A DNA stretch of 64,000 bases from Burkholderiales bacterium (GTDB taxonomy: Bacteria; Pseudomonadota; Gammaproteobacteria; Burkholderiales; SG8-41): contig JAIENU010000074.1 of NCBI GenBank assembly GCA_019751125.1, positions 10,464-74,463 on the forward strand. The letters are read 5' to 3'. A program made the translations under genes and the position numbers. Shown piece by piece: positions 4,207-57,993 of this stretch; position 1 is the first letter of the stretch, and every line of letters starts with the position of its first letter. Under the pieces are notes generated by a model. It was not told the DNA's origin, ran no database searches, and saw only the letters and a list, made by a program, of their open reading frames with translations.

Positions 4207-5103
4207 TTACTGCGGAACGTAGACCGGTGTCGTAACCGTTGTCGCTTCGATGGCGGGGGGGCGCTGCAGCGTCTCTGCCTCGGCCGGTGTCAGTTGCAGC
4301 GGATCGGCCGGCAGCAGCGGCGTTGCCAGTTGCACAGTCGAACGCAGATTGACGCCATGCGGCCGGGTTTCGCCGACATCGGCGCCATCAAGCTTCTCGC
4401 GCGGCGGGTTGCCGTCATAAATCAGGTTGCGCCGGCGCTGCAGGTAGGCGTCGCGCAGGAATTCATAGGGGTCGATTGCCGCGGTTTCCAGCACCTTGCT
4501 CGCGCCGAGCAGGTTGGCGCGATCGGAGATCAGGCGCAGGGCGGCCACCTGGTTGCGGTCACGCGGCGGATCGATATGGCTGATCGGATCCACTGCCACA
4601 TAGACCACAGTGCCGGCCGCATCACGCAGCGTGCGCGGGCCGAGGAAGGGCAGCATCAGGTAGGGGCCGTCACCGACGCCCCAGTAACCCAGTGTCTGGC
4701 CGAAATCCTCGTCGTTTTTCTCGAGGCCGATCTTGCTCGCCACATCAAAAAATCCGAGCACGCCGACGGTGCTGTTGACGATGACGCGGCTGACATCGGA
4801 GCCGGCGGCATTGACCTTGCCCTGCAGCAGGTTGTTCAGCGCGACGATGATGTCGTTGACGTTGGAAAACATGTTGCTGATGCCGCTGCGGATGAATTCC
4901 GGCACCACACCTTCATAGATGGTGGCGAGCGGCTTGATCAGCACCGTGTCCAGGCCTTCGTTGAAGGTATAGACCGCGCGGTTCATCGGCTCCAGCGGGT
5001 CACGCGGATCACCGGCACCGGTGGTGGCGCAACCGGTGGTCAGGACCAGTCCGGCGAGGGCGCATACGGTGAGCAGGCGGAGGCGGCTGAGCAGGCGAAA
5101 CAT
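4207..5103 (-). CDS. mlaA: MlaA/VacJ-family outer-membrane lipoprotein
   Basis: Signal peptide with lipobox LVLTTGC, then PLEPMNRAVYTFNEGLD and GISNMFSNVND blocks typical of VacJ/MlaA. Confidence 0.9.
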   Translation of the reverse strand: MFRLLSRLRLLTVCALAGLVLTTGCATTGAGDPRDPLEPMNRAVYTFNEGLDTVLIKPLATIYEGVVPEFIRSGISNMFSNVNDIIVALNNLLQGKVNAAGSDVSRVIVNSTVGVLGFFDVASKIGLEKNDEDFGQTLGYWGVGDGPYLMLPFLGPRTLRDAAGTVVYVAVDPISHIDPPRDRNQVAALRLISDRANLLGASKVLETAAIDPYEFLRDAYLQRRRNLIYDGNPPREKLDGADVGETRPHGVNLRSTVQLATPLLPADPLQLTPAEAETLQRPPAIEATTVTTPVYVPQ

Positions 5104-8191: not shown

Positions 8192-8266
8192 TTGGTCAGC
8201 CTGCTGAGCCCTGTGGCATTACAAGGCCGGCAAGAAACCCTCCGCCATCCAAGCCCGGGAGACACC

Positions 8267-9172
8267 ATGACCGCCGCAGTTGCCCTGAAGTCCACGCAAA
8301 ACGCCAATCACATCACCGTCACGCCGCTGACCGGCGCGATCGGAGCCGAAATCGCCGGTGTCGATCTGTCGCAGCCGCTGACCGATGCCGAATTTGAAGT
8401 CATCCACGATGCGTGGATGCAACACCTGGTGCTGCGCTTCCGCGGCCAGACGCTCGACAAGGACCTGCTGCTCGCTTTCAGCCGCCGCTTCGGCAAGCTC
8501 GACAAGGCGCCGATCAACCCGACCGGCAAGAGCTGGATCGACGGCTACGGTGAACTCGCGGTGATGTCCAACATCAAGCAGGACGGCAAGCCCGTGGGCA
8601 GCCTCGGCGATGGCGAAGCAGTGTGGCACACCGACATGTCGTACCAGGAAGTCACGCCTTCGGCGGCGCTGCTCTACGGCGTTGAAGTGGTGCAGAAGGA
8701 GGGCGGCGAGACCGGTTTCACCAGCATGTACCGCGCCTATGACCTGATGCCCGAGGATCTGAAGCAGGCGATCGCCGGCAAGCAGATCAAACACGATGCC
8801 AGCTACAACTCTGCCGGCCAGCTGCGCAAGGGCTTCAAGGAAGTGACCGATCCGCGCGAGGCGCCTGGCGCGGTGCACCCGATTGTGATCAAGCACCCGG
8901 TGACCGGCCGCAAGGCGCTGTTCCTCGGCCGCCGCCCGCATGCCTATGTGATGGGCCTGTCGCTGGAAGACAGCGAGGCACTGCTCGACCGCCTGTGGAC
9001 CTATGCACTGGGCCATGCCGAGCGCGAAAACTGGTTCCAGAAATGGAAGGTGGGCGATCTGCTGATGTGGGATAACCGCTGCACCATGCACATGCGCACC
9101 GCCTTCGATCCCGCGGAGCGCCGTTATCTGCTGCGCACCACCATCATCGACGGCAAGCCGCAGGCTGCCTGA
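8267..9172 (+). CDS. TauD/TfdA-family Fe(II)/2-oxoglutarate-dependent dioxygenase
   Basis: VTPLTGAIGAEIAGVDLSQPL N-terminus, a WHTDMSY His-x-Asp iron motif and a distal His in LMWDNRCTMHMR. Start trimmed to ATG 8267 (GGGAGA RBS). Confidence 0.85.
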   Translation: MTAAVALKSTQNANHITVTPLTGAIGAEIAGVDLSQPLTDAEFEVIHDAWMQHLVLRFRGQTLDKDLLLAFSRRFGKLDKAPINPTGKSWIDGYGELAVMSNIKQDGKPVGSLGDGEAVWHTDMSYQEVTPSAALLYGVEVVQKEGGETGFTSMYRAYDLMPEDLKQAIAGKQIKHDASYNSAGQLRKGFKEVTDPREAPGAVHPIVIKHPVTGRKALFLGRRPHAYVMGLSLEDSEALLDRLWTYALGHAERENWFQKWKVGDLLMWDNRCTMHMRTAFDPAERRYLLRTTIIDGKPQAA

Positions 9173-11302: not shown

Positions 11303-12271
11303 TTATTCCGGCTTGATGTTCTGCGACTTGATCACGCCGGTCCAGCGTGTGATTTCGGCGCGGATGTGCTTGTCCAGCTCTTCCGGCGTGGTGCCGCGCG
11401 GCACGAAGCCCATGCCGGCGAAACGTTCCTTGCTGTCGGCCGACTGCACCACGCGGTTGATCGCCTGGTTGAGGCGGTCAACGATGGGGCGGGGCGTGTT
11501 TGCCGCGCTGACGATGCCGAACCAGTTGACCACCTCGAAATCGGTGACGCCGCTTTCGGAAATCGCCGGCACGCCGGGCAGCAGCGGCGTGCGTTCCGCC
11601 GCGGCAACGCCGATGACGCGGATGCGCTGCGTGCCGAGCATGGACTGCAGCGAACCCAGCGCGGCGAACATCACCGACACCTGGCCGCCGACCAGTTCGG
11701 TCAGCGAGATGTTCGCGCCCTTGTACGGGATGTGCACCATGTCGGTCTTGGTCTTGGCCTTGAAGAACTCCATCGCGAGGTGGGTGATCGCGCCGGTGCC
11801 GGATGAGCCGTAGTTGATCTGCCCGGGTTTTGATTTCGCCAGTGCGATCAGGTCGCGCGCCGAGCGCAGCGGCATCGAGGGATGCACCACCAGCACCTGC
11901 GGTGACACCGCCATCAGCGTGATCATCGAGAAGTCGCGCACCGGGTCATAGGGCGTCTTCGGCTGCAGCGCCGGATTGATTGCATTGGGTCCGGGATTGG
12001 CGAGCAGCAGCGTGTAGCCGTCGGGCTGTGATTTCGCCACCAGATCCGCACCGATCGCACCGCCGGCGCCGCCGCGGTTGTCCACCAGCACCTGCTGGCC
12101 CAGCGGTTCCACCAGGCGCTGTGCCACGACACGCGCGATGACATCGTTGGCGCCGCCGGGTGCGAAGGGCACCACGATGCGCACCGGTTTCACCGGAAAA
12201 TTCTGTGCTGCGACCGGTGCTGCGAGCAGTGCTGCGCAGGCCGCGGCGAGCGGCAGGTTGATGCGGTTCAT
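11303..12271 (-). CDS. Bug/TctC-family periplasmic solute receptor (tripartite tricarboxylate transporter SBP)
   Basis: Signal peptide MNRINLPLAAACAALLAAPVAAQ, then FPVKPVRIVVPFAPGG and the YGSSGTG, VPYKG and NWFG family blocks. GGAGGAA RBS; start trimmed to 12271. Confidence 0.9.
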   Translation of the reverse strand: MNRINLPLAAACAALLAAPVAAQNFPVKPVRIVVPFAPGGANDVIARVVAQRLVEPLGQQVLVDNRGGAGGAIGADLVAKSQPDGYTLLLANPGPNAINPALQPKTPYDPVRDFSMITLMAVSPQVLVVHPSMPLRSARDLIALAKSKPGQINYGSSGTGAITHLAMEFFKAKTKTDMVHIPYKGANISLTELVGGQVSVMFAALGSLQSMLGTQRIRVIGVAAAERTPLLPGVPAISESGVTDFEVVNWFGIVSAANTPRPIVDRLNQAINRVVQSADSKERFAGMGFVPRGTTPEELDKHIRAEITRWTGVIKSQNIKPE

Positions 12272-12315
12272 GGCTGGGTTCCTCCGGGATATGGACTGCC
12301 TGATTTTATTGCATT

Positions 12316-12336
12316 TTGTGTGTTCAAGATACACAA
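12316..12336. promoter_or_regulatory. inverted repeat TTGTGTGTTCAAGATACACAA (candidate GntR-type operator)
   Basis: TTGTGT/ACACAA arms in the divergent Bug / dehalogenase-like spacer. Half-sites resemble GntR-family TTGT..ACAA operators. Confidence 0.35.
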
Positions 12337-12386
12337 TGATGGGGCGCTTGGCAACGGCCGGCGGGCATCAGATCACGGAGGAGAGC

Positions 12387-13355
12387 ATGGCAGGATTGCA
12401 GATCATGGCGGCAGCCACGGCCGCTGATTATGCGCGTGACCCGACGCGCTGGGGCAGCGCGGAAGTGGCCGCGCATTTCCCGTGCTTCGAACATGTGGAC
12501 GTGCGCACGTCCGGCGCGGTGATCCGCCTGCGCCACGGCGGTTCCGGACCGCCGCTGCTGCTGGTCCACGGCAATCCGCAGAACCATACCTGCTGGTACA
12601 AGATCGCGGCGCAGCTGGCGAAGCGTTACCACGTGATCCTGCCCGACCTGCGCGGCTACGGCGACAGCTCGCTGCCTGATGCGGGTGACAACCACATCAA
12701 CTTCAGCTTCCGCGCGATGGCGCAGGACCTGTTGGAGATCATGGACCAGCTCGGCTACGACAAATTCTTTGTCGCCGGACATGACCGTGGCGGGCGCACC
12801 GTGCACCGCCTGTGCATGGATCATCCGCAGCGCATCCGCAAGGTGTGCCTGATGGACATCATTCCCAACCACTATGTGTGGAACAACATCACCAAGGCCT
12901 GGGCGGTCGGCACCTGGCACTGGGCCTTCATGGCGCAGCCCGAGCCTTTCCCGGAGCGGCTGATCAGCGCGGTGCCGGCGGAATACTTCATCAAGAGCCG
13001 CATGGCGATCCGCGGCGGTACCGGCCTCGGTTTCCTGACTGATGGCGCGCTCGCCGAATACATCCGCTGCTATACGCTGAAGACGATCAGCGGTTCCTGC
13101 CGTGATTACCGCGCGACGGCCACCTGCGATTTCGAGATGGACACGGCCGACAAGGACAAGAAACTGGCGATGCCGCTGATGCTGCTGTGGGGCGCACGCG
13201 GCCATTCGCCGGAGCGCGCGCAGCGTTTTGTCGAAATCTGGAAGCAGTACGCGTCAAACATCCAGATTACCGATCCGCTGGAGGCCGGGCATTACATGCA
13301 GGAGGAAATGCCTGAGCGTATCCACGACCGTTTTGTCGAGTTTTTCCGGGATTGA
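12387..13355 (+). CDS. haloacetate (fluoroacetate) dehalogenase-like alpha/beta hydrolase, paralog 1
   Basis: LLLVHGNPQNHTCW, LPDLRGYGDS, Asp-nucleophile motif GHDRGGR, WHWAF, CRDYRA and GHYMQEE. RBS GGAGGAGAG lies before ATG 12387. Confidence 0.8.
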   Translation: MAGLQIMAAATAADYARDPTRWGSAEVAAHFPCFEHVDVRTSGAVIRLRHGGSGPPLLLVHGNPQNHTCWYKIAAQLAKRYHVILPDLRGYGDSSLPDAGDNHINFSFRAMAQDLLEIMDQLGYDKFFVAGHDRGGRTVHRLCMDHPQRIRKVCLMDIIPNHYVWNNITKAWAVGTWHWAFMAQPEPFPERLISAVPAEYFIKSRMAIRGGTGLGFLTDGALAEYIRCYTLKTISGSCRDYRATATCDFEMDTADKDKKLAMPLMLLWGARGHSPERAQRFVEIWKQYASNIQITDPLEAGHYMQEEMPERIHDRFVEFFRD

Positions 13356-13424: not shown

Positions 13425-14309
13425 GTGTTCGAAGGTTTCAAGCTGACCCAGATCCAGACCAGCGACCCCGAGGTCAGGATCAACCTGCGTTACGGCGGCA
13501 ACGGCCCGCCGATCCTGCTGATCCACGGCAATCCGCTGACCCATGTGCACTGGCACCTGGTGGCGCCACGGCTGGCGAAGAACTTCACTGTGGTGGTCAC
13601 CGACCTGCGCGGCTATGGCGACAGCGGCAAGCCGCGCGGGCTTGAAGACCACAGCAACTATTCCTTCCGGCGCATGGCGCTCGATCAGGTCGAGGTGATG
13701 CAGGCGCTCGGCTTTGAAAAATTCTGCGTCGCCGGCCACGACCGTGGCGGGCGCGCGGCGATGCGCATGGCGCTGGATCATCCGGACAAGGTGAAAAAGC
13801 TCGCCACCTTTGACATCCTGCCCACGCACCATGTGCTGACCCACACGACCTGGCAGTGGGCACTCAATTCCTACCACTGGTTTTTCATGGCCCAGCCCTA
13901 CGACATTCCGGAAAAGCTGATGGAAGGCAAGGAGGACTACTACATCCTGAAGAAGCTGACCAAGATGGGCATCGGCAAGGGCGGTTTTTCAGAGGAGACG
14001 CTGAAGGAATACGCGCGCTGCTGCACGCCGGAGAACCTGCACGCGGTCTGCGAGGACTATCGCGCCGCAGTGACGGCGGATATGGCAATGGATACCGAGG
14101 ACTTCAATGCCGGGCGCAAGGTGCAATGCCCGGCGGCGATCTACTGGGGTGAGCTGAGCCACACCAACAAGTTCTTCGATCCGTTCAAGGCCTGGCCGCA
14201 GTACGTCGCGGACATCCGCCGCATCAAGCCCTTGCCCTGCGGCCACTACCCGGCGGAGCAGGTGCCGGATCAGGTGGTCGAGGAACTGGATTCGTTTTTC
14301 AGGGATTAG
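13425..14309 (+). CDS. haloacetate (fluoroacetate) dehalogenase-like alpha/beta hydrolase, paralog 2
   Basis: MFEGF N-terminus (the same as characterised fluoroacetate dehalogenases as I recall them), GHDRGGR, FDILP, YHWFF, CEDYRA and CGHYP. GTG start with GGAGGAG RBS 7 nt upstream. Confidence 0.85.
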   Translation: MFEGFKLTQIQTSDPEVRINLRYGGNGPPILLIHGNPLTHVHWHLVAPRLAKNFTVVVTDLRGYGDSGKPRGLEDHSNYSFRRMALDQVEVMQALGFEKFCVAGHDRGGRAAMRMALDHPDKVKKLATFDILPTHHVLTHTTWQWALNSYHWFFMAQPYDIPEKLMEGKEDYYILKKLTKMGIGKGGFSEETLKEYARCCTPENLHAVCEDYRAAVTADMAMDTEDFNAGRKVQCPAAIYWGELSHTNKFFDPFKAWPQYVADIRRIKPLPCGHYPAEQVPDQVVEELDSFFRD

Positions 14310-16079: not shown

Positions 16080-16126
16080 ACAAACGGCTTGCGGCATCGC
16101 GCCGCTGAAACTAGAATCCGATTACT

Positions 16127-16310
16127 CGCAGGAGAGTGAACCCTTGGTCATATCGGGGTTCCGCCGAAGGCGCAATCCCTCATGATCGCTCAGGCAAACA
16201 TACTGCGGGTGGTAACAGCCGATCTGGAGAGCGGTCACGCGATTCTGCGGTGACCCACCGAAGGGGCACACGGGCCCAGGCCCGTAAAACTCTCAGGTAA
16301 ACGGACAGGG
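16127..16310 (+). promoter_or_regulatory. tandem glycine riboswitch (two aptamers)
   Basis: Aptamer 1: CGCAGGAGAG...CGCCGAAGGCGCAA...CUCAGGCAAA...CUGCG. Aptamer 2: CUGGAGAG...CACCGAAGGGGCA...CUCUCAGGUAAACGGACAG. Both carry the invariant GGAGAG, CCGAAGG.GCA and CUCAGG cores of the glycine riboswitch in the canonical tandem arrangement. Confidence 0.9.
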
Positions 16311-16394
16311 AGGGCGGCGCGGAGTGAAAGCTCCGTCTGCTCATTCACTGTTCGAGTCCCTTGAATGCAAAACTTCGGGGTCTGAGAGGTCATC

Positions 16395-17660
16395 ATGCGA
16401 GTCATCGTACTCGGTGCCGGCGTTGTCGGTACCGCGGCGGCGTGGTTTCTTAGCCGCGCCGGCCATGAAGTCAGCGTCATCGATCGACAACCCGCCGCAG
16501 GCATGGAAACCAGCTACGCCAACGGCGGGCAGATTTCCGTCAGCCATGCCGAGCCCTGGGCCAATCCTTCAGCGCCGTTCAAGGTATTGAAGTGGTTGTT
16601 CCGCGAGGACGCGCCGCTGCTGTTCCGGCCGCGTCTCGACTGGGCGCAGTTGCGCTGGTGCCTGGGCTTCCTGCGCGAATGTACGCCGGCGCGCACGCGC
16701 CACAACATCATCCAGATCGTCAACCTTGGTCTGTACAGCCGCGCCACCCTGCGGGCGCTGCGTGCGGAGACCGGCATTGCCTATGACCACCTTGCGCGCG
16801 GCATCCTGCATTTCTACACCAGCCGGCAGGAGTTCGATGCCGCGCAGGAGCCGGCGCGTCTGATGCGTGAGTTCGGCTGCGAGCTCGACATGAAAACGCC
16901 GGAGGAGTGCGTCGCGATCGAGCCGGCGCTCGCCAGCGCGCGTGATCTGCTGGTCGGCGGCAGCATGACGCCTTCGGACGAATCGGGCGACGCGCACCAG
17001 TTCACACAGCGCCTTGCCGCGCTGTGCGCCGGGCGCGGCGTGCGTTATCACTACGACACCACGATCCTCGCGCTGGACGCCGCAGGCAGGCGCATCGAGG
17101 GCGTGCGTGTGCGCGACCGCGAAGGCTCGCGCCTGCTCAAGGCAGACGCCTATGTGCTGGCGCTGGGCAGTTACAGCGCGGGTCTTGCCGCGCGGCTGGG
17201 TCTGCGCCTGAACATTTATCCGGCCAAGGGTTATTCCGTGACCATGCCGGTGAGCGATCCGGCGCGCGCGTACCAGGTCAGCCTGACCGACGATGAATAC
17301 AAGCTGGTGTTTTCCCGGCTCGGCGACCGGCTGCGCATCGCCGGCACCTGCGAGCTGAACGGCTACGACACCCGGCTCAACGACGTGCGCTGCCGGGCTA
17401 TTGTCAAACGCACCGGTGAATTGTTTCCGGGCGGTGGCGACACCACTAAAGCCGAGTTCTGGACCGGTCTGCGGCCGGCGACGCCATCGAACCTGCCCTA
17501 CATCGGCGCTACGCGATATCCGAATCTGTTTCTGAACACCGGCCACGGTACGCTGGGGTGGACACACGCCTGCGGCTCGGGACAGGCCATCGCCGACATC
17601 GTGTCGGGGCGACGGCCGGAGGTGGATTTTGCGTTTTGTGCGGCGGCATGGCGGCAATAG
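16395..17660 (+). CDS. dadA: D-amino-acid dehydrogenase-like FAD oxidoreductase (DadA family)
   Basis: Collinear with E. coli DadA as I recall it: MRVIVLGAGVVGTAAAWFL, ETSYANGGQIS, YPAKGYS, FWTGLRPATP and NTGHGTLGWTHACGSG. Confidence 0.85.
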   Translation: MRVIVLGAGVVGTAAAWFLSRAGHEVSVIDRQPAAGMETSYANGGQISVSHAEPWANPSAPFKVLKWLFREDAPLLFRPRLDWAQLRWCLGFLRECTPARTRHNIIQIVNLGLYSRATLRALRAETGIAYDHLARGILHFYTSRQEFDAAQEPARLMREFGCELDMKTPEECVAIEPALASARDLLVGGSMTPSDESGDAHQFTQRLAALCAGRGVRYHYDTTILALDAAGRRIEGVRVRDREGSRLLKADAYVLALGSYSAGLAARLGLRLNIYPAKGYSVTMPVSDPARAYQVSLTDDEYKLVFSRLGDRLRIAGTCELNGYDTRLNDVRCRAIVKRTGELFPGGGDTTKAEFWTGLRPATPSNLPYIGATRYPNLFLNTGHGTLGWTHACGSGQAIADIVSGRRPEVDFAFCAAAWRQ

Positions 17661-17701: not shown

Positions 17702-17722
17702 ATTGTATACACTGCATACAAT
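17702..17722. promoter_or_regulatory. inverted repeat ATTGTATACACTGCATACAAT (candidate GntR-type operator)
   Basis: ATTGTAT/ATACAAT arms lie about 75 nt upstream of the TauD-GntR-Bug-enolase gene string. Half-sites match the TTGTAT/ATACAA type known for GntR-family operators. Confidence 0.45.
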
Positions 17723-17796: not shown

Positions 17797-18744
17797 ATGG
17801 AAACAGCGCAACGCCAGTCACAACATCCGGTCAACCAGCCCGGCCAGGTGCAGGTGATCCCCAGCGGTGCCGCACTCGGTGCGGAAATCCGTGGCGTCGA
17901 TCTGTCGCAGCCGGTGCCTGAAGAGACCAAGGCACTGTTGCGCAAGGCCTGGGCGGATCATCTGGTGATTTACTGGCGGGGACAGAACCTGCCGGACGAG
18001 GCCCTGCTTGGTGCCGCGAAGATTTTCGGCGAAACCAAGGAACCGGCGGCGCGCAAGTACCAGGTGGCCGGCGGCTACAACATCGGCGGCAAGATCGTGC
18101 CGCTGCATCCCCACCTGACGCTGATCAGCAACCTCGACGAGAACGGAACGCCGGTCAAGGACAACGGCGCACTGGGCAGCTATGAGGTGGTGTGGCACAG
18201 CGACAATTCCTATGTGCAGGTGCCGCCAGCGGGCAGCATGCTCTACTCGGTGGTGCTGCCGGTGAATGGCGGGGGCGATACCTGGTTCAATAACCAGTAT
18301 CAGGCTTACGAGGAACTGCCGGATGACCTGAAGGCGGCGATCAAGGGCAAGTCGCAGATTCATGATGCGAGCCGCAACAGCGCAGGCGTGTTGCGACCGA
18401 CGGTCAAGATGCCGACGAAGCCCGAAGAGGTACCGGGTCCTGCACATCCACTCGTTCGTGTTCATCCGGTCACCGGCAAGCGCGCGCTGTACCTCGGCCG
18501 CCGTCGCGACTGGCCTTCGAACTACATCATCGGCATGTCCAACGAGGACAGCGAGGCCCTGCTCGACAAGCTGTGGGCACATGCCACACAGGTCAAATAT
18601 GCGTGGAAACACAGCTGGCAGGTCGGCGATCTGGTGCTGTGGGACAACCGCTGCGCGATGCATTACCGCTCCGAGGTCGATCCGAAGCAGCCGCGCGTCC
18701 TGCATCGCACCGTGATCAACGGCGAAGCCGTGATCGCGGGCTGA
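17797..18744 (+). CDS. TauD/TfdA-family Fe(II)/2-oxoglutarate-dependent dioxygenase, second copy
   Basis: VIPSGAALGAEIRGVDLSQPV, the WHSDNSY His-x-Asp motif and LWDNRCAMHYR. Confidence 0.85.
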   Translation: METAQRQSQHPVNQPGQVQVIPSGAALGAEIRGVDLSQPVPEETKALLRKAWADHLVIYWRGQNLPDEALLGAAKIFGETKEPAARKYQVAGGYNIGGKIVPLHPHLTLISNLDENGTPVKDNGALGSYEVVWHSDNSYVQVPPAGSMLYSVVLPVNGGGDTWFNNQYQAYEELPDDLKAAIKGKSQIHDASRNSAGVLRPTVKMPTKPEEVPGPAHPLVRVHPVTGKRALYLGRRRDWPSNYIIGMSNEDSEALLDKLWAHATQVKYAWKHSWQVGDLVLWDNRCAMHYRSEVDPKQPRVLHRTVINGEAVIAG

Positions 18745-18751
18745 GCGGTCG

Positions 18752-19531
18752 ATGGCGCCACGCAGCCGTTCAAAACGGCCGGCTCGCAGCAGCAGCCCCG
18801 ATGACTCCGCCCTGCAGCGTATTGCCGCACGCAGCGTTCCTGCGGGTGGCAATGCACGTTCGCTGGCTGAAGTCGCCTGCGACGAAATCCGCAGGGCGAT
18901 CAGGGAGGGCAGGGTTGCCACCGGAGCACACCTGACCGAGGTTGATCTGGCCGCGTGGCTGGGCATGAGCCGTACGCCGATACGAGAGGCGATGCGGCGG
19001 CTGCAAAGCGAGGGGCTGCTGCTCAACCAGCCGTTCCGCGGTGCGCTGGTGATGCGCCTTGATGCCGATGACATGCGGCAGATGTTCGCCGTGCGTGAAC
19101 TGCTGGAGCCGGCTGCTGCTGCAGCCTGTGCCGTTAACGCGGGTCCGGCCGACATTGCGGCGTTGAGGGCAATCCTCGACGAGGAAGCCGTGAAACTGGA
19201 TAATCCCGCAGCGCTGATTCCGCTGAACCGTCAGTTTCACGACATCATTCTCGAAAGCGCGCGCAACCAGTTCCTGAGCAAGGCCATTGCGGGCGTCTAT
19301 TCGCTGATTCCACTGCTGGGCGATTCGAATCTGCTGAACGGGCGTCACGCCCGGGAGGCCCATGCCCAGCATCAGGAAATCGTTGACGCTATCGAGCACC
19401 GCGATGCCGCGCGTGCAGAAGTTCTGGCGCGTGAACATGTGCGGGCTTCATTGCGGACCCGATTGGCCCGCATCGCGGACAATGTGCCGCAGGATTTCAT
19501 AAAAAAAACCACCAAAACGAGGAAGAAATAA
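18752..19531 (+). CDS. GntR-family transcriptional regulator with FCD domain
   Basis: wHTH LTEVDLAAWLGMSRTPIREAMRRLQSEGLLLNQPFRGALV and an FCD-like helical C-terminus with His residues. Confidence 0.85.
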   Translation: MAPRSRSKRPARSSSPDDSALQRIAARSVPAGGNARSLAEVACDEIRRAIREGRVATGAHLTEVDLAAWLGMSRTPIREAMRRLQSEGLLLNQPFRGALVMRLDADDMRQMFAVRELLEPAAAAACAVNAGPADIAALRAILDEEAVKLDNPAALIPLNRQFHDIILESARNQFLSKAIAGVYSLIPLLGDSNLLNGRHAREAHAQHQEIVDAIEHRDAARAEVLAREHVRASLRTRLARIADNVPQDFIKKTTKTRKK

Positions 19532-20503
19532 ATGCATCAATACTTCAGCGCGATCCTGCTGTGCGGCCTCAGCTGCCTGCCGATGACGGTGGCGGCGCAG
19601 GCGCCCGGCGGATATCCCTCGAAACCGGTGCGCATGCTGGTGCCGTTCGTGGCTGGCGGCGGCACCGATGTTGTCGCCCGTGCTGTCGCACAGAAACTGG
19701 CTGACCGCACCGCGCAGCAGTTCGTTGTTGACAACCGTCCCGGCGCCGGCGGGCGCATCGCCCTGGAAACCACCAAGATGGCTGCACCCGACGGCTACAC
19801 CATCACCATGATTTCCGGAACGACCACGGCCAGCAGCAACCTGCACAAGAACCTGCCTTACGATTTTGCGAAGGATTTTGCGCCGATCACCCAGGTCACC
19901 GAGCAGCCCTATGTGGTGCTGGTGCACGCTGCCTTGCCGGTCAAATCCATTCCGGAACTGGTCGCACTGGCCAAGGCCAAGCCGGGCGCGCTCAACTATG
20001 GTTCCTCTGGCACCGGTGGCATGCAGCATCTGTCCGGAACGCTGCTGTCGCAGAAGGCCGGCATTTCGATGGTGCATATTCCGTTCAAGGGCGGCGGGCA
20101 GGTGGTTGTTGATCTGGTTGCAGGGCAGATCCAGCTGGCCTTCCTGAATCCGCTGGGCGCGCGTCCCCATATCACTGCCGGACGTGTGCGCGGCATTGCG
20201 GTGACCACGCGCAAACGGGCGCAGGCTTTCCCCAATCTGCCTGCCGTGGCGGAAACACTGCCCGGTTTCCATGTCAGCAACTGGTATGGCCTGGTGGCGC
20301 CGGCAAAAACCCCGCAGCCGGTCATCCAGTTCCTCTACAAGAACGTGGTGGCGGCCCTGGCCGACGCCGAGCTGCGCGAGCGACTGGAAAAGGAAGGCTC
20401 CGAGCTGCTCGGCAGCACCCCCAGGGAGTTCGGCACCCACATCGTCAATGAGGTGCAGATGTGGGGCAGGGTCATCCGCGAGGCCGGCATCCAGGCCAAT
20501 TGA
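19532..20503 (+). CDS. Bug/TctC-family periplasmic solute receptor
   Basis: Signal peptide, then YPSKPVRMLVPFVAGGGTD and the YGSSGTG, IPFKGG and NWYG blocks. The start abuts the GntR stop. Confidence 0.9.
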   Translation: MHQYFSAILLCGLSCLPMTVAAQAPGGYPSKPVRMLVPFVAGGGTDVVARAVAQKLADRTAQQFVVDNRPGAGGRIALETTKMAAPDGYTITMISGTTTASSNLHKNLPYDFAKDFAPITQVTEQPYVVLVHAALPVKSIPELVALAKAKPGALNYGSSGTGGMQHLSGTLLSQKAGISMVHIPFKGGGQVVVDLVAGQIQLAFLNPLGARPHITAGRVRGIAVTTRKRAQAFPNLPAVAETLPGFHVSNWYGLVAPAKTPQPVIQFLYKNVVAALADAELRERLEKEGSELLGSTPREFGTHIVNEVQMWGRVIREAGIQAN

Positions 20504-22648: not shown

Positions 22649-22850
22649 GGCGCGGCATTCCTCAAACTTAAGCTGTTGAATGAAGGGTTTTTTCTGCGCC
22701 GGCAACAACCGAAAGAAAAGCAACGGCGCCCGAAGAGCCGCGATGTTAGCACCAGCTTGCGCGTTTTTGCATACGGTGCACCCCTGTGACCGTGGAGTGG
22801 GTTAGCATCGGCGCTCCCGGCTCAAGGTGAAAGTTCAAGGAGGCAGCACA

Positions 22851-23750
22851 GTGGAAGTGTTCGAAGGTTTCAAGGATTTCAAGCTGACCCAGATCCAGAC
22901 CAGCGACCCCGAGGTCAAGATCAACCTGCGTTACGGCGGCAACGGCCCGCCAATCCTGCTGATCCACGGCAATCCGCTGACCCATGTGCACTGGCACCTG
23001 GTGGCGCCGCGGCTGGCGAAAAACTACACCGTGGTGGTCACCGACCTTCGCGGCTACGGCGACAGCAGCAAGCCGCGCGGCAGGGAGGACCACAGCAACT
23101 ACACCTTCCGCCGCATGGGCCAGGACCAGATCGACGTGATGGCCGCACTCGGCTTCGACAAGTTCTGCGTGGCCGGCCACGACCGCGGCGCGCGCACCGC
23201 CTTCCGCATGGCGCTGGATCACCCCGAGAAAATCCTCAAGTTCGCCAGCTTCGACATCCTGCCGACCCACCACCTGCTGACCCACGCCACCTACCAGTGG
23301 GCGATGCATTCCTCGCACTGGTTTTTCATGGCCCAGGCCTATGACATTCCGGAGAAGCTGATCGAGGGCAAGTACGACTATTACATCAAGCAGAAGCTGA
23401 CCAAGCTCGGCATCGGCAAGGGCGGCTTCACCGAGGCGACGCTGCGCGAATACGCGCGGGTCTGCACTGCCGAGAACATCCATGCCGTGTGCGAGGATTA
23501 CCGCGCCGCGGTGACGCTGGACATGGAAATGGACACCGCTGACTTCAAGGCCGGCCGCAAGATCCAGTGCCCGACCGCGGTGTACTGGGGCGAGCAGAGC
23601 CACACCGAGAAACATTTCGACCCGCTGAAGGCGTGGCCGCAGTACGCCGCCGACATCCGCCGCATCAAGCCGTTGCCCTGCGGCCATTACCCGGCGGAGC
23701 AGGTGCCGGATATGGTGTTCGAGGAGATCAACGCGTTTTTCAGCTACTGA
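22851..23750 (+). CDS. haloacetate (fluoroacetate) dehalogenase-like alpha/beta hydrolase, paralog 3
   Basis: Close paralog of 13425..14309, with GHDRGAR, FDILP, SHWFF, CEDYRA and CGHYP. AAGGAGG RBS lies 7 nt before GTG 22851. GTG 22857 is the position homologous to the paralog-2 start. Confidence 0.85.
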   Translation: MEVFEGFKDFKLTQIQTSDPEVKINLRYGGNGPPILLIHGNPLTHVHWHLVAPRLAKNYTVVVTDLRGYGDSSKPRGREDHSNYTFRRMGQDQIDVMAALGFDKFCVAGHDRGARTAFRMALDHPEKILKFASFDILPTHHLLTHATYQWAMHSSHWFFMAQAYDIPEKLIEGKYDYYIKQKLTKLGIGKGGFTEATLREYARVCTAENIHAVCEDYRAAVTLDMEMDTADFKAGRKIQCPTAVYWGEQSHTEKHFDPLKAWPQYAADIRRIKPLPCGHYPAEQVPDMVFEEINAFFSY

Positions 23751-25196: not shown

Positions 25197-26183
25197 TCAG
25201 TTCGGCTTGAGATTGGCCGCGCGGATCACCTTGCCCCATTTCGCCGTTTCGCTGCGGATGTAGGCAGCGAATTCATCGGGGCTGGAACTGGTGGCATCGA
25301 CGCCCCGTGTGGCCAGCGTGTCGCGCAGGTCGGGGATGTTCATCACCGCGACGACATCCTTGTGCAGGCGGTCAACAACCGGTTTTGGCGTGCCGGCAGG
25401 CGCCATCAGGCCATACCAGTTGCTCGCTTCATAACCCTTGAGGGCTGCGGTTTCGGCAATGGTCGGCACCTCGGGCAGGGCAGGGGTGCGTTTGGCACCG
25501 GTCACGGCGAGGGCGACGGCGCGCCCGTTTTTCACCACCGGCACGCCGGTGGAGATCACCGCGACAAATACCGGCACCTGGCCGCTGACCAGATCGCCCA
25601 GTGCGGGGGCGCCGCCCTTGTACGCTATATGCATCATGTCGATTTTGGCCATGCTCTTGAGCAATTCACCGGCGAGGTGGCCGGGACTGCCCAGTCCTGA
25701 ACTCGCGTAGTTCAGCGTTCCCGGCTTTTGCCGGGCGAGGGTGATCAGTTCCCCGACTGATTTGGCGGCCACGGTGGGGTGCACGATAAAAATGTTCTGG
25801 AGCTGCACGGCCAGCGAAATCGGCAACAGGTCGCGCTGCGGGTCGTAGGACACCTTGGTGATGGCAGGGCTGATCACCAGCGCGCCGAGGGTGCCCAGAT
25901 GGAGGTTGTAGCCGTCGGGCGTGGCCTGGCTGGCGAGTTCGGCGGCAATGGTGCCGTTGGCACCGGCGCGGTTGTCGATAACCACTTGCTGCTTCAGCGC
26001 GTCACCGAGGCGCGGCGCGATCACGCGGGCGACAAGGTCGGTGGCGCCACCCGGCGGGAAACCGACAATGATGCGCACCGGCCGGTTCGGGAATTCTTCG
26101 GCAGCCGCGGCGGGCAGGGCGCCAGCAAGCGAGGCCGTGCAGGCCATGGCGATCCGGCAAAGATGTCGGGAGCGTCGGTTCAT
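25197..26183 (-). CDS. Bug/TctC-family periplasmic solute receptor
   Basis: Signal peptide, then FPNRPVRIIVGFPPGGATD and the YASSGLGSPGH, IAYKGG and NWYG blocks. GGAGGAA RBS. Divergent from tcuA. Confidence 0.9.
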   Translation of the reverse strand: MNRRSRHLCRIAMACTASLAGALPAAAAEEFPNRPVRIIVGFPPGGATDLVARVIAPRLGDALKQQVVIDNRAGANGTIAAELASQATPDGYNLHLGTLGALVISPAITKVSYDPQRDLLPISLAVQLQNIFIVHPTVAAKSVGELITLARQKPGTLNYASSGLGSPGHLAGELLKSMAKIDMMHIAYKGGAPALGDLVSGQVPVFVAVISTGVPVVKNGRAVALAVTGAKRTPALPEVPTIAETAALKGYEASNWYGLMAPAGTPKPVVDRLHKDVVAVMNIPDLRDTLATRGVDATSSSPDEFAAYIRSETAKWGKVIRAANLKPN

Positions 26184-45875: not shown

Positions 45876-46859
45876 TCAGAGCGGCGTGATGCCGGCGGCC
45901 TTGACCACCTTGCTCCATTTTTCGATCTGCTTGCGCGCGAAGTCCCACAGTTCCTCGGGCGTGCTGCCGATGGGAATGGCACCGTTCTGGATCATGCGCT
46001 CGCGCATCGCCGGCTGGTTGATCACGGCGCCGGCTTCGCTGTTCAGGCGCTTGAGTATTGCGGGCGGTGTTTTCGCGGGGGCGACCAGGCCTTGCCAGGC
46101 CGTGGTTTCGAAACCGGGCAGCCCCGATTCGGACAGCGTCGGCAGTTCAGGCAGCAGCGGGAAACGCCGGTCGCTGGTGACCGCGATAGCGTTGAGCTTG
46201 CCGGCGCGGATATGCGCGATCGCGCTGGGCAGGCTGGCGAAGGACATCGAGATGCGGCCGCCGATCAGGTCGATCATCGCCGTGGCTGCACCCTTGTAAG
46301 GCACATGGACCATGTCGGTGCCGGTCATCAGTTCGAACAGCTCGCCGGCAAGGTGCGGAGAGCCGAGGTTGCCCGAGGAACCGTAGGTGAGTTTGCCCGG
46401 GCTGGCTTTGGCGGCCTTGATCAGGTCGGCCACCGACTTGATCGGCAGCGAGGGGCCGACCACCAGCACATTGGGTGCGCTGGCGACATGGGTGATCGGC
46501 GCCAGGTCGCGCAACTGGTCGTAGGGCAGCTTGCGGGTGACGGCCGGGTTGACGCCGAAGGAGCTGGGCACCAGCAGGATGGTGTAGCCGTCGGCGGTGG
46601 CGCGGACCGTCATCTCGGTGGCGATGATGCCGCTGGCGCCGGGCCGGTTGTCGGCCACCACATTCTGGCCGAGGCGCTCGGCCATGCCTTCGGCCAGCGC
46701 GCGGGCGATGATGTCAGCGTTGCCGCCCGGAGCCTGGGCAATCAGCAGGCGGATCGGACGGTCGGGATAGCCGCCTTTGGCCTGTGGCTGCGCGGCCTGT
46801 GCTGCGGTGGCGACCAGCAGCGCGGCAAGGCTGCAAACCGCGTATTGCGCGACGGACAT
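45876..46859 (-). CDS. Bug/TctC-family periplasmic solute receptor
   Basis: Signal peptide, then YPDRPIRLLIAQAPGGNAD and the YGSSGNLGSPH and VPYKGA blocks. Start trimmed to 46859. Confidence 0.9.
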   Translation of the reverse strand: MSVAQYAVCSLAALLVATAAQAAQPQAKGGYPDRPIRLLIAQAPGGNADIIARALAEGMAERLGQNVVADNRPGASGIIATEMTVRATADGYTILLVPSSFGVNPAVTRKLPYDQLRDLAPITHVASAPNVLVVGPSLPIKSVADLIKAAKASPGKLTYGSSGNLGSPHLAGELFELMTGTDMVHVPYKGAATAMIDLIGGRISMSFASLPSAIAHIRAGKLNAIAVTSDRRFPLLPELPTLSESGLPGFETTAWQGLVAPAKTPPAILKRLNSEAGAVINQPAMRERMIQNGAIPIGSTPEELWDFARKQIEKWSKVVKAAGITPL

Positions 46860-47055
46860 GATCAAGCTCCTCTCCAGTTTCCGTTCAACGGGTGGCCGCA
46901 TGCTTGTTTTTTGCGCCCGGCCGCGGCCGGCCTTGGCGCCTGGTTCGCAGTATTGCACCGGTGCGTGATGCCGGCACGGCAATGCCCACATATTGGCGTG
47001 CCGCGAGGGGCGGTCGCGGTATCATGCCGGCACCCATAAAAAGGAGGAGAAGCCC

Positions 47056-48754: not shown

Positions 48755-49732
48755 TCAGTTGGCTTCGATCCTGGCCTTGCGGATCACCGGCACCCAGCGC
48801 TCGGTTTCGGCGCGGATGAACTTGACATAATCGGCGCCGGTGCCGGGAGCGGCGTCGATGCCGCGTTCCTTCAGCTGCTTCACCACATCGGGTGCGTTCA
48901 GCGCGGCGTTGAATTCCCTGTTCAGGCGCGCAATGATCGCCGGCGGTGTTTTTGGCGCTGCTGACAGGCCGTACCAGTTGATAGCGAGATAACCCTTCAC
49001 GCCGGCCTCGGCGATGGTTGGCACATCCGGCACGGCCTCGGCACGTTTGCCGCCGGTGACACCCAGCGCTCGCGCCTTGCCCGACTGCACATGCGGCACC
49101 GCGGTGGAAATCACCGCCATGAACGACGGAATATGTCCGGCGATGAGGTCGGTGACCGCCGGACCGCCGCCCTTGTACGGCACATGATTCATCTGCGCGC
49201 CGGTCATGCTCTCGAGCAGCGCCATCGCGAGGTGACCGGGGCTGCCGATGCCGGAGGTGGCGTAGTTGATCTTGCCCGGCTGGCTTTTTGCGCTGGCAAT
49301 GAACTCGGCCAGGTTTTTCGCCGGCACCGAAGGATGCACGATCAGCATGTTCTGCAGCGACACCAGCATGCCGAGGTGGGTGAAATCCTTGATCGGGTCG
49401 TAGCCGGTTTTCTGGATCGCCGGGCTCACCACCATCGAACCGATATGCGACATGCCGACGCTGTGGCCGTCGGGCTCCGAGCGCGACAGGATCTGCATCG
49501 AGATCACGCCGTTGGCGCCGGGCCGGTTATCGACGATGACCTGGTTGCCGAGGCTGGCCGCGAGCTTGGGCTGCAGGAAACGCGCGACAAGGTCGGTGGC
49601 GCCACCGGGCGGAAAGCCAACGATGAAGCGCACCGGCTTGGTCGGGCCCCAATCTGCGGCGGATGCCGGGATGGAGAACAGGGCCGGGGCGAGGGTGGCG
49701 AGTGCAACGCCGCATCTGAGCAGGGTGTTCAT
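48755..49732 (-). CDS. Bug/TctC-family periplasmic solute receptor
   Basis: Signal peptide, then PTKPVRFIVGFPPGGATD and the YATSGIGSPGH and VPYKGGG blocks. Start trimmed to 49732. Confidence 0.9.
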   Translation of the reverse strand: MNTLLRCGVALATLAPALFSIPASAADWGPTKPVRFIVGFPPGGATDLVARFLQPKLAASLGNQVIVDNRPGANGVISMQILSRSEPDGHSVGMSHIGSMVVSPAIQKTGYDPIKDFTHLGMLVSLQNMLIVHPSVPAKNLAEFIASAKSQPGKINYATSGIGSPGHLAMALLESMTGAQMNHVPYKGGGPAVTDLIAGHIPSFMAVISTAVPHVQSGKARALGVTGGKRAEAVPDVPTIAEAGVKGYLAINWYGLSAAPKTPPAIIARLNREFNAALNAPDVVKQLKERGIDAAPGTGADYVKFIRAETERWVPVIRKARIEAN

Positions 49733-49803
49733 CCCAATTCCTTTGCAAGGGTTGACCGGAGGGCGGCCGGAGCCGGCATGACGGAGTGATTGTGCCAAAA
49801 ACA

Positions 49804-49840
49804 AAGACCGCAAGGCGGCTGCCTTGCGGTCTTCTTTTTC
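49804..49840. terminator. rho-independent terminator-like hairpin
   Basis: AAGACCGCAAGG / CCTTGCGGTCTT stem flanked by A-rich and T-rich tracts, between two same-strand Bug genes. Confidence 0.7.
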
Positions 49841-53447: not shown

Positions 53448-53584
53448 GGTGTAGGGGGAAATTGGCGGGTTTCACAGACGGCGAGGCCGCGCATTATCGC
53501 ATCGTGGATGCTTCCTTGCCGCTGTGCCTGCCGCGGAGTAATCTCGCCGCCCGCCTGTTCATTCCCTGGTGTTCGACACATTCC

Positions 53585-54355: not shown

Positions 54356-54374
54356 AACCGGAGTCCTGAATACC

Positions 54375-57891: not shown

Positions 57892-57993
57892 AAACCATTC
57901 CGGGGTCTTGACACTCCCGAAGCCCAGCCCCTATCGTCACTCCGAGGCCTGATTCATAACAACAACAGGGCCCGCCAAACCCGGAGGGGAGTG

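What the first reader, a model, noticed from the sequence alone, without database searches (positions are those of the whole stretch)
16127..17660. Tandem glycine riboswitch controlling a DadA-like flavoenzyme instead of the glycine cleavage system
**Seen in sequence**
- Two consecutive aptamers carry the invariant cores:
  - GGAGAG ... CGCCGAAGGCGCAA ... CUCAGGCAAA
  - CUGGAGAG ... CACCGAAGGGGCA ... CUCUCAGGUAAACGGACAG
- They occupy the 315-nt spacer upstream of a full-length homolog of D-amino-acid dehydrogenase DadA.
- No obvious U-tract terminator follows the aptamers, so control is probably translational or rho-related.

**Established knowledge**
- Glycine riboswitches most commonly activate gcvTHP or glycine and alanine transporters.

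**Inference**
- This DadA paralog acts on glycine, oxidising it to glyoxylate, as an alternative glycine-detoxifying or assimilating route.
- It is notable that it sits among haloacetate-dehalogenase-like genes, whose product is glycolate, and TauD-type dioxygenases. Both groups feed C2 metabolism.
Basis: partly seen in the sequence, partly recalled or inferred. Interest (0 to 1): 0.6.

Follow-up and report, generated by a model that had tools for sequence, protein, structure and literature searches.

The report
Glycine riboswitch controlling DadA-like oxidoreductase gene
A genuine two-aptamer glycine-sensing RNA switch of the known 'ON' type sits in front of a D-amino-acid-dehydrogenase-like gene, a pairing conserved in dozens of Burkholderiales species; the enzyme probably oxidises glycine to glyoxylate, but that was not tested here.

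Summary
Window 16119-16318 holds two adjacent Rfam RF00504 glycine aptamers (58.2 and 55.4 bits; gathering score 32). A conserved promoter-like element precedes them, and a 421-aa DadA-subfamily flavoenzyme gene follows (16395-17660). The pairing is not a one-off: 57 of the 80 closest homolog loci from other species carry the same tandem switch directly upstream. These homologs form one clade, 42% identical to E. coli DadA. Canonical dadA loci (with Lrp, alr or dadX) have no aptamer.

The leader carries the already-described P5 pseudoknot, a hallmark of glycine ON switches. No terminator follows. The Shine-Dalgarno sequence is complementary to the aptamer-2 core, which fits glycine-induced translation.

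That the enzyme oxidises glycine to glyoxylate is plausible. The nearest solved relatives are glycine oxidases, and C. necator DadA6 does this and is induced 185-fold by glycine. I could not obtain the DadA6 sequence, so orthology is unproven.

The fluoroacetate-dehalogenase-like and TauD neighbours are real, but they are shared only with the three closest relatives, so they are probably incidental.

Verdict: new member of a known kind, moderate interest.

The parts
16089..16117 (+). Promoter-like element: TTGCGG (-35, 16089-16094), 17-nt spacer, TAGAAT (-10, 16112-16117). It predicts a transcription start near 16124, the first base of aptamer-1 P1.
   Evidence: Sequence verified. The same TTGCGG/TTGTCG-17-TAGAAT arrangement is aligned in L001 and L002, and L004 has a TACAAT-type -10. 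The strict consensus scan did not call it. The start site is inferred.
16119..16215 (+). Glycine aptamer 1. P1 is 16124-16131 with 16203-16210. P2 is 16138-16143 with 16156-16161. P3a/P3b is 16163-16172 with 16187-16195. The P3b loop is 16173-16186.
   Evidence: RF00504 at 58.2 bits, gathering score 32. Own model R1 at 72.4 bits. Helix covariation. Coordinates verified.
16177..16181 (+). 5' strand of the P5 pseudoknot (CCCTC) in the aptamer-1 P3b loop.
   Evidence: It pairs with GAGGG at 16310-16314. Compensatory variants occur across loci. Formal count: 97.1% paired against 59-83% for slid controls, 3 of 5 pairs changed on both sides, 0 of 500 shuffles. P5 is described in PMC7161355.
16214..16318 (+). 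Glycine aptamer 2. P1 is 16223-16226 with 16306-16309. P2 is 16233-16238 with 16250-16255. P3b is 16270-16285. The conserved core CTCTCAGG is at 16290-16297.
   Evidence: RF00504 at 55.4 bits when searched alone. R1 at 61.7 bits. Coordinates verified.
16310..16314 (+). 3' strand of the P5 pseudoknot (GAGGG), immediately after aptamer-2 P1.
   Evidence: CGGC (16315-16318) follows and could pair with GCCG (16218-16221) in the linker. That pairing is inferred and does not vary, so it could not be tested.
16319..16394 (+). Expression platform. It holds a hairpin (16319-16336, GCGGAG-UGAAAG-CUCCGU) with no U-tract after it, and the Shine-Dalgarno GAGAGG (16384-16389) inside TCTGAGAGG (16381-16389). 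That nonamer pairs with the aptamer-2 core at 16290-16297.
   Evidence: No terminator found. In the free fold the SD pairs with 16290-16297, with unpaired probability 0.01-0.5; with both aptamers locked it rises to 0.18-0.73; the duplex is -12.3 kcal/mol. The same complementarity is kept in L001 (-16.8) and L002 (-17.8), although their spacers have otherwise diverged.
16395..17660 (+). DadA-like FAD-dependent oxidoreductase gene, 421 aa. The N-terminus MRVIVLGAGVVG carries the GxGxxG dinucleotide-binding motif.
   Evidence: Pfam DAO at 229.7 bits. NCBIfam NF001933 at 514 bits, cutoff 383. It is 42% identical to E. coli DadA. The nearest PDB entries are glycine oxidases. An identical protein is annotated 'D-amino acid dehydrogenase' in a Burkholderiales MAG.

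Best explanation
The region is a free-standing, monocistronic unit: its own promoter, a tandem glycine riboswitch of the ON type, and a DadA-family flavoenzyme gene.

**At low glycine (inferred from folding).** Aptamer 2 is not locked. Its core CUCUCAGG (16290-16297) pairs with UCUGAGAGG (16381-16389), which contains the Shine-Dalgarno sequence, and translation initiation is blocked.

**With glycine bound (inferred).** Both aptamers fold and dock. The P5 pseudoknot forms between CCCUC (16177-16181) and GAGGG (16310-16314). The aptamer-2 core is held inside its own three-way junction, the Shine-Dalgarno sequence is released, and the enzyme is made.

**Enzyme (inferred).** It most likely oxidises glycine to glyoxylate plus ammonium. 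This would give a catabolic or detoxifying route induced by glycine, parallel to the glycine cleavage system.

**Shown here**
- Both aptamers are bona fide.
- The helices and P5 covary.
- The riboswitch-gene pairing is conserved across a whole clade.

**Inferred**
- The ON polarity, taken from P5 and from the literature.
- The Shine-Dalgarno sequestration mechanism.
- The substrate.
For: **RNA identity**
- RF00504 scores both aptamers at 58.2 and 55.4 bits.
- Covariation supports P1, P2 and P3.

**Conservation of the pairing**
- A tandem pair lies directly upstream of the homolog in 57 of 80 species-level loci.
- The curated Rfam model confirms aptamers in 12 of 12 sampled loci.
- L069 has two consecutive riboswitch-DAO modules.
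- Riboswitch-negative members are nested inside the clade. L003 has a clean deletion of the leader and L010 keeps a remnant of it, so the association looks ancestral.
- Canonical dadA loci have no aptamer and sit with Lrp, alr or dadX.

**ON type**
- The P5 pseudoknot is present and covaries.
- PMC7161355 reports P5 in 87% to over 99% of ON switches and in none of the OFF symporter switches.
- In the Cupriavidus relatives, the P5 3' strand is also the 5' half of a strong terminator. That fits glycine-dependent anti-termination.

**Translational control in the window**
- No terminator follows the aptamers.
- The Shine-Dalgarno sequence pairs with the aptamer-2 core in the free fold and is released when the aptamers are constrained.
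- This complementarity is retained in L001 and L002.

**Own promoter**
- A promoter-like element is conserved in the closest relatives.

**Substrate**
- The nearest solved structures are glycine oxidases.
- C. necator DadA6 (H16_B0508) is a DadA-family enzyme, 185-fold induced on glycine. It converts glycine to glyoxylate in vivo and is required for growth on glycine (bioRxiv 10.1101/2020.03.11.987487).
Against: - No experiment exists on this RNA or this protein.
- The nearest-neighbour model puts the native two-aptamer state about 34 kcal/mol above the free MFE. It ignores ligand, Mg2+ and tertiary contacts, so the folding argument is only qualitative.
- Complementarity between the Shine-Dalgarno sequence and the aptamer-2 core is not general in the clade. 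The median equals that of the riboswitch-negative controls, and only 16 of 58 reach -9 kcal/mol or lower. The aptamer-side strand is invariant, so covariation cannot test this helix.
- Orthology with DadA6 is unproven. C. necator was absent from the top 120 hits of both protein searches, which suggests DadA6 is less than about 72% identical to both queries.
- By sequence the protein passes the NCBIfam D-amino-acid dehydrogenase subfamily model and fails the ThiO glycine oxidase model (130 bits against a cutoff of 250.8).
- No glyoxylate-consuming gene is nearby.
Confidence: 0.6

Rival explanations
1. The riboswitch is real, but the enzyme is an ordinary broad-range D-amino-acid (D-alanine) dehydrogenase. 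Glycine would then be only a regulatory proxy, for example for peptidoglycan or amino-acid turnover, and not the substrate.
For: The protein passes the NCBIfam 'D-amino acid dehydrogenase' subfamily cutoff (514 against 383) and fails the ThiO model. All database names say D-amino acid dehydrogenase. Glycine riboswitches also control sodium:alanine symporters (PMC7161355), so links between glycine and alanine exist.
Against: The clade is only 42% identical to E. coli DadA. It lacks the alr/dadX and Lrp partners seen at canonical loci. A catabolic enzyme behind an ON-type glycine switch is most simply explained by glycine being its substrate. A DadA-family enzyme, DadA6, is shown to oxidise glycine in vivo.
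Confidence: 0.2
2. Control in the window is mainly transcriptional: Rho-dependent or otherwise non-canonical termination in the 76-nt platform, with P5 acting as anti-terminator. Shine-Dalgarno occlusion would then not be the main mechanism.
For: Many relatives use intrinsic terminators that overlap the P5 3' strand: Cupriavidus at -29 to -36 kcal/mol with a T5 run, and also L011, L069 and Limnobacter. The window keeps a hairpin at 16319-16336 right after P5. The complementarity between the Shine-Dalgarno sequence and the aptamer-2 core cannot be tested by covariation.
Against: No U-tract follows any hairpin in the window. The Shine-Dalgarno sequence sits inside a 7-bp perfect complement (plus a G-U wobble pair) of the aptamer-2 core, and this is retained in L001 and L002 although their spacers diverged. 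PMC12452182 reports that only about 10% of riboswitches in Pseudomonadota have terminators.
Confidence: 0.2
3. It is an OFF switch, or a decaying non-functional relic.
For: Some clade members have lost the leader (L003, L010, the Marinobacter loci), so it is dispensable in some lineages.
Against: Both aptamers score more than 20 bits above the gathering score. The helices and P5 keep compensatory changes. P5 is absent from known OFF switches. The aptamer-1 P3b loop that forms P5 is present, whereas most OFF switches lack that stem-loop and 90% carry a P4 helix in aptamer 1 instead; P4 itself was not looked for in the window.
Confidence: 0.05

Closest known systems
Tandem glycine riboswitch, ON type (Rfam RF00504; e.g. 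the B. subtilis gcvT leader; the aminomethyltransferase-linked (ON-AMT) and GcvP glycine-dehydrogenase-linked (ON-GD) classes of Torgerson, Hiller and Strobel 2020, PMC7161355)
   Same: Two adjacent aptamers with canonical cores and a single expression platform. The P5 pseudoknot links the aptamer-1 P3b loop to the sequence just after aptamer-2 P1. A catabolic gene lies downstream.
   Different: The downstream gene is a DadA-family flavoenzyme and not gcvT or gcvP. In the window the platform has no terminator and appears to occlude the Shine-Dalgarno sequence with the aptamer-2 core. The P5 strands are CCCUC/GAGGG, not the common polyC/polyG tract.
Cupriavidus necator H16 DadA6 (H16_B0508)
   Same: A DadA-family FAD enzyme of almost the same length (1.269 kb gene against 1.266 kb here). 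It is strongly glycine-induced (185-fold) and oxidises glycine to glyoxylate in vivo. It comes from the same bacterial order.
   Different: Its sequence could not be retrieved, so orthology and the presence of a riboswitch at H16_B0508 are unknown. It is probably less than about 72% identical to the window protein and to the riboswitch-linked Cupriavidus homologs. The C. necator papers I read that name DadA6 do not connect it to a glycine riboswitch.
Canonical DadA (E. coli b1189, dadAX operon; Lrp-alr-dadA clusters in Rhizobiaceae and Comamonas)
   Same: Same NCBIfam subfamily (NF001933), same length and same domain layout.
   Different: Only 42-47% identical. These genes are linked to alanine racemase and an Lrp-type regulator and have no glycine aptamer.
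ThiO-type glycine oxidases (PDB 4YSH, 6J38, 7CYX)
   Same: They are the nearest solved structures (E = 2e-23 to 2.5e-16). They share the DAO fold and convert glycine to the imine and then glyoxylate.
   Different: The window protein fails the ThiO equivalog model (130 bits against 250.8). It is not in a thiamin gene context. DadA-type enzymes are dehydrogenases, not oxidases (established knowledge of the family).

Membership tests
Glycine riboswitch (Rfam RF00504), tandem architecture | Each aptamer scores at or above the curated gathering score (32 bits) | tested here: met
   58.2 bits (16119-16215) and 55.4 bits (16214-16318).
Glycine riboswitch (Rfam RF00504), tandem architecture | A P1-P2-P3 three-way junction, with helices supported by compensatory change among homologs | tested here: met
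   P2/P3: 95.6% of cells paired against 32-44% for slid controls, 154 cells changed on both sides, 0 of 500 shuffles. Aptamer-1 P1: 80.4% against 22-38%, 54 cells changed on both sides.
Glycine riboswitch (Rfam RF00504), tandem architecture | Two aptamers joined by a short linker, followed by one expression platform and a gene on the same strand | tested here: met
   The linker is 16211-16222 and the single platform is 16319-16394 before the ATG at 16395. The same layout occurs in 57 related loci.
Glycine riboswitch (Rfam RF00504), tandem architecture | Selective binding of glycine | not testable with these tools
   This needs in-line probing, ITC or equilibrium dialysis.
ON-type tandem glycine riboswitch (Torgerson 2020 classes) | P5 pseudoknot between the aptamer-1 P3b loop and the sequence just 3' of aptamer-2 P1 | tested here: met
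   CCCTC (16177-16181) pairs with GAGGG (16310-16314). At least 6 compensatory variants occur across loci. 97.1% of cells paired, 0 of 500 shuffles. Defined in PMC7161355.
ON-type tandem glycine riboswitch (Torgerson 2020 classes) | Glycine increases expression of the downstream gene | not testable with these tools
   Inferred from P5 and from the terminator/P5 overlap in the Cupriavidus relatives. A reporter assay is needed.
D-amino acid dehydrogenase DadA subfamily (NCBIfam NF001933 / Pfam DAO) | A full-length match above the curated cutoff, with an N-terminal GxGxxG FAD-binding motif | tested here: met
   NF001933 at 514.4 bits against cutoff 383, residues 1-412. DAO at 229.7 bits. The N-terminus is MRVIVLGAGVVG.
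D-amino acid dehydrogenase DadA subfamily (NCBIfam NF001933 / Pfam DAO) | Equivalog-level identity with characterised DadA, and the alanine-catabolism context (alr/dadX, Lrp) | tested here: not met
   The equivalog NF009074 scores 352.9 against a cutoff of 494. Identity to E. coli DadA is 42%. No alr, dadX or Lrp gene lies near it in the window or its relatives, unlike the canonical loci.
Glycine oxidase ThiO (TIGR02352) | Score above the equivalog cutoff | tested here: not met
   130.2 bits against a cutoff of 250.8, although ThiO-type enzymes are the nearest solved structures.
DadA6-type glycine-to-glyoxylate dehydrogenase (C. necator H16_B0508) | Orthology to H16_B0508, and activity on glycine | not tested
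Activity needs an enzyme assay.

The most novel reading that the evidence does not exclude
The whole clade of riboswitch-linked 'D-amino acid dehydrogenases' may be mis-named. This covers at least 57 species, mostly Burkholderiales, plus an alphaproteobacterial isolate. It would in fact be a dedicated glycine dehydrogenase that forms glyoxylate and is gated directly by glycine. That would make it a second major glycine-catabolic route beside the glycine cleavage system, and the natural, RNA-regulated counterpart of C. necator DadA6. The same mechanism might then explain the 185-fold glycine induction of DadA6.
Probability: 0.5. Interest if true: 0.5.

Novelty: new member of a known kind. Interest (0 to 1): 0.35.

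Why it matters
If the enzyme inference holds, thousands of database entries named 'D-amino acid dehydrogenase' would be better described as glycine-inducible glycine dehydrogenases. Glycine catabolism in Burkholderiales would then have a riboswitch-controlled glyoxylate branch in addition to the cleavage system.

That branch matters for engineering the reductive glycine pathway. In C. necator, DadA6 diverts glycine, and it has been deleted or exploited in engineered strains.

The compact unit of promoter, riboswitch and Shine-Dalgarno sequence could also serve as a native glycine-inducible expression cassette for Betaproteobacteria.

For riboswitch biology it adds a well-populated gene class to the ON-type regulon. 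It also offers a natural series in which the same aptamers and P5 drive either a terminator or Shine-Dalgarno occlusion. None of this changes the known principles.

Tried and rejected
**1. The loop-tail pairing as a new pseudoknot.** I first took it for new. It is real, but it is the published P5 (Kladwang 2012; Torgerson 2020).

**2. Retrieving C. necator dadA6 (H16_B0508).** Every route failed.
- C. necator was absent from the top 120 hits of the window protein and of the Cupriavidus L066 homolog.
- The plasmid collection holds nothing above 48% identity, and chromosome 2 is not held.
- The published dadA6 check-primers match no fetched locus.
- An exact forward-primer hit in two metagenome contigs lies next to no DAO gene and no aptamer.
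- The CSD/DUF1294 gene upstream of the Cupriavidus homolog has C. necator homologs, but none lies beside a DAO gene.

**3. Conserved metabolic neighbours.** None was found. A roughly 708-aa downstream family that I suspected was malate synthase G is an EF-G paralog. The others are ArgRS, SPOR, DsbA and LysR genes.

**4. Shine-Dalgarno/aptamer-2-core pairing as a clade-wide rule.** Rejected. It holds only for the window subclade and a few other loci.

**5. Literature.** No paper holds both 'glycine riboswitch' and 'D-amino acid dehydrogenase'. The hits for dadA, glycine oxidase, COG0665 and Cupriavidus were irrelevant.

**6. The RNA-seq supplement of the C. necator paper.** It shows no 'Glycine' ncRNA row in the part that is held.
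Full report
**1. The observation**

The Rfam glycine model RF00504 matches 16119-16215 at 58.2 bits. Searched on its own, 16214-16318 scores 55.4 bits. The gathering score is 32.

Whole-window scans report only the first aptamer. The second overlaps it by 2 nt and is removed as a lower-scoring overlapping match. That is a tool effect and not a weakness of the RNA.

The downstream ORF (16395-17660, 421 aa) is a full-length DAO-family flavoprotein. It passes the NCBIfam 'D-amino acid dehydrogenase' subfamily cutoff (514 against 383). It fails the DadA equivalog model (353 against 494) and the ThiO glycine oxidase model (130 against 251). No terminator-like site lies between aptamer 2 and the start codon.

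**2. Is the pairing of RNA and gene meaningful?**

I fetched the 80 closest homologs (62-91% identity) from a collection holding one genome per species. I then built a covariance model of the aptamer from them.

- 57 of the 80 loci carry two adjacent aptamers directly upstream of the homolog, on the same strand.
- The curated Rfam model confirms aptamers in all 12 loci I sampled, and finds none at the E. coli dadA locus.
- One locus, L069, has two consecutive units of tandem riboswitch plus DAO gene.
- The hosts are mainly Burkholderiales: Polaromonas, Acidovorax, Aquabacterium, Paucibacter/Roseateles, Methylibium, Rubrivivax, Ramlibacter, Sphaerotilus, Limnobacter and Cupriavidus. One alphaproteobacterial isolate, Flaviflagellibacter deserti, also carries it.

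In a neighbour-joining tree, all 80 homologs form one clade far from E. coli DadA, at 42% identity. The 23 riboswitch-negative members are nested inside that clade. Thirteen are one Marinobacter block and the rest are scattered Burkholderiales.

The negatives are genuine, and two are informative. In L003, dadA follows the same MOSC gene after 26 nt, in a block that is otherwise syntenic with the window. L010 keeps only a remnant of the 3' tail. The simplest reading is an ancestral association with secondary losses.

Canonical dadA genes, at about 46% identity, have no aptamer. They sit with alanine racemase and Lrp-type regulators.

**3. Anatomy and structure**

A promoter-like TTGCGG-17-TAGAAT (16089-16117) is conserved in the nearest relatives. 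It would start transcription at the first pair of aptamer-1 P1.

| Helix | Cells paired | Slid controls | Cells changed on both sides |
|---|---|---|---|
| P2/P3 | 95.6% | 32-44% | 154 |
| Aptamer-1 P1 | 80.4% | 22-38% | 54 |

I also noticed a pairing between the aptamer-1 P3b loop (CCCTC, 16177-16181) and the tail just after aptamer-2 P1 (GAGGG, 16310-16314). Several compensatory variants occur across loci: CTCCC/GGGAG, CTTCC/GGAAG, CCCGCCCG/CGGGCGG, CCCCC/GGGGG and CACCC/GGGTG. A position-anchored count gave 97.1% of cells paired against 59-83% for slid controls. Three of five pairs changed on both sides, and 0 of 500 shuffles reached the observed score.

This is not new. It is the P5 pseudoknot proposed by Kladwang et al. 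2012 and catalogued by Torgerson, Hiller and Strobel 2020 (PMC7161355). That paper reports it in 79% of tandem glycine riboswitches, in 87% to over 99% of ON switches, and in none of the OFF-type symporter switches. It is usually mutually exclusive with the alternative helix of the expression platform. Its presence here therefore identifies the window's RNA as an ON-type switch.

**4. How it most likely works**

Expression platforms differ between lineages.

- **Terminator type.** The Cupriavidus loci have strong terminators (-29 to -36 kcal/mol, followed by TTTTT). The 5' half of each terminator stem is the P5 3' strand, which is a textbook arrangement for glycine-dependent anti-termination.
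- **Shine-Dalgarno type.** The window, L001 and L002 have no U-tract. Their Shine-Dalgarno sequence lies inside TCTGAGAGG, CCTGAGAGG or CCTGAGGG, the reverse complement of the invariant aptamer-2 core CUCUCAGG. The duplex energies are -12.3, -16.8 and -17.8 kcal/mol. The rest of the spacer has diverged between these loci.

Folding the window leader without constraints pairs 16381-16388 with 16290-16297, and the Shine-Dalgarno bases are unpaired with probability 0.01-0.5. Locking both aptamers in their native structure, with the P5 strands reserved, raises this to 0.18-0.73.

The best model is therefore glycine-induced release of the ribosome-binding site. This step is inferred. The aptamer-side strand is invariant, so covariation cannot test it. 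The energy model also ignores ligand and tertiary contacts. Rho-dependent termination remains possible.

**5. What the enzyme does**

Nothing here measures activity. Five points argue for glycine as the substrate:

- The sensor is glycine-specific, of the ON type, and conserved with the gene across a whole clade.
- The clade is distinct from alanine-linked DadA.
- The nearest solved structures are glycine oxidases (4YSH, E = 2e-23).
- Glycine is the simplest substrate for a deaminating DAO-fold enzyme.
- Cupriavidus necator DadA6 (H16_B0508) is a 'putative D-amino acid dehydrogenase' whose gene is 1.269 kb. It is 185-fold induced on glycine, converts glycine to glyoxylate in an E. coli biosensor strain, and is essential for growth on glycine (bioRxiv 10.1101/2020.03.11.987487).

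The DadA6 papers I read do not connect it to a glycine riboswitch. I could not obtain the DadA6 sequence. It is probably less than about 72% identical to the window protein, so it may be a different paralog. I treat DadA6 as a functional precedent and not as an ortholog.

**6. The genomic neighbourhood**

The alpha/beta-hydrolases at 13425-14309 and 22827-23750 are full-length homologs of fluoroacetate dehalogenases (230-260 bits), and the alpha/beta-hydrolase gene at 12078-13355 (Pfam match only) may be a third. Two TauD-family genes are present.

However, the order MOSC, dadA, TauD, GntR, TctC, MR/MLE is shared only with L001-L003. No neighbour family is conserved across riboswitch-positive loci. 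In other genera the flanking genes are housekeeping genes.

A unique palindrome at 17702-17722, in the spacer between dadA and TauD, looks like an operator for the adjacent GntR/FCD regulator. That suggests a separate transcription unit. Among the window genes sampled I found no gcv, gcl, glycerate-pathway or malate-synthase gene. The idea that the neighbourhood reflects shared C2 metabolism is not supported.

**7. Comparison with what is known, and novelty**

The RNA is a standard member of RF00504, ON-type with P5. The protein belongs to the DadA subfamily by sequence but not at equivalog level.

The open literature I could search never pairs 'glycine riboswitch' with 'D-amino acid dehydrogenase'. 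The surveys list the glycine cleavage system, transporters, glyA and sdaA. [quoted passage not shown]

So the association is under-described, but it is very likely visible in automated annotations. I rate it a new member of a known kind.

**8. Verdict**

This is a real and ordinary riboswitch class with a less familiar cargo. The association turns out to be widespread rather than exceptional. Its value lies in the testable hypothesis that this clade is a glycine-gated enzyme converting glycine to glyoxylate.

- Interest: 0.35.
- Confidence in the composite explanation: 0.6.
- Component estimates: riboswitch identity about 0.97, ON polarity about 0.8, Shine-Dalgarno occlusion about 0.55, glycine as substrate about 0.6.

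Noticed in passing
window 16119-16318: Tool caveat. Whole-window Rfam scans list only one of the two aptamers, because the second overlaps the first by 2 nt and is removed as a lower-scoring overlapping hit. Automated pipelines could mis-call such tandem switches as singlets.
   Followed up: yes
window 12078-13355, 13425-14309, 22827-23750: At least two paralogous alpha/beta-hydrolases (13425-14309 and 22827-23750) are full-length homologs of structurally characterised fluoroacetate dehalogenases (230-260 bits to PDB 3R3U and 9C9F). A third alpha/beta-hydrolase gene (12078-13355) was matched only at Pfam level and not compared with solved structures. I did not check the catalytic or halide-binding residues.
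   Followed up: partly
window 17702-17722: A unique near-perfect palindrome, ATTGTATACA-C-TGCATACAAT, lies in the spacer between dadA and the TauD-family gene. It is a candidate operator for the adjacent GntR/FCD regulator (18752-19531) and marks a separate transcription unit.
   Followed up: partly
window 8192-9172 and 17797-18744: Two TauD/TfdA-family dioxygenase genes. The one tested against NCBIfam (17797-18744) scores well below the taurine dioxygenase equivalog cutoff (146.8 against 313).
   Followed up: no
window 11303-12334(-), 19532-20503, 25197-26183(-), 45876-46991(-), 48755-49813(-), 57991-59001: At least six TctC/Bug-family periplasmic receptor genes. This is typical of Burkholderiales catabolic regions and consistent with the window coming from a Burkholderiales MAG.
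   Followed up: no
L069 3109-3311 and 4691-4909 (MAG JAFEEH010000091): Two consecutive units, each a tandem glycine riboswitch followed by a DAO-family gene (ORFs from 3398 and from 5001). This looks like a duplicated module.
   Followed up: partly
L003 4188-5001; L010 about 4780-4830: Secondary loss of the riboswitch. In L003, dadA follows the syntenic MOSC gene after 26 nt. L010 keeps only the tail remnant ACTGCGGGAGCGGCG.
   Followed up: yes
L057, L064, L066, L073 (Cupriavidus), about 4930-5000: The P5 3' strand (GGGGG) is also the 5' half of a strong intrinsic terminator (-29 to -36 kcal/mol in L064, L066 and L073, followed by TTTTT; the same stem and T-run are visible in L057). The same aptamers therefore drive a transcriptional platform in Cupriavidus and an apparent translational one in the window.
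   Followed up: partly
window 52014-55256: A cluster of a PrpD/MmgE-family gene, an HpcH/HpaI aldolase gene and a BKACE (beta-keto acid cleavage enzyme) gene. It is unrelated to the finding.
   Followed up: no
L049 10894-11072; L069 447-568(-): The Rfam scan also found a cobalamin riboswitch (70.8 bits) and a Bcj11 sRNA (83.6 bits) in the flanks of related loci.
   Followed up: no
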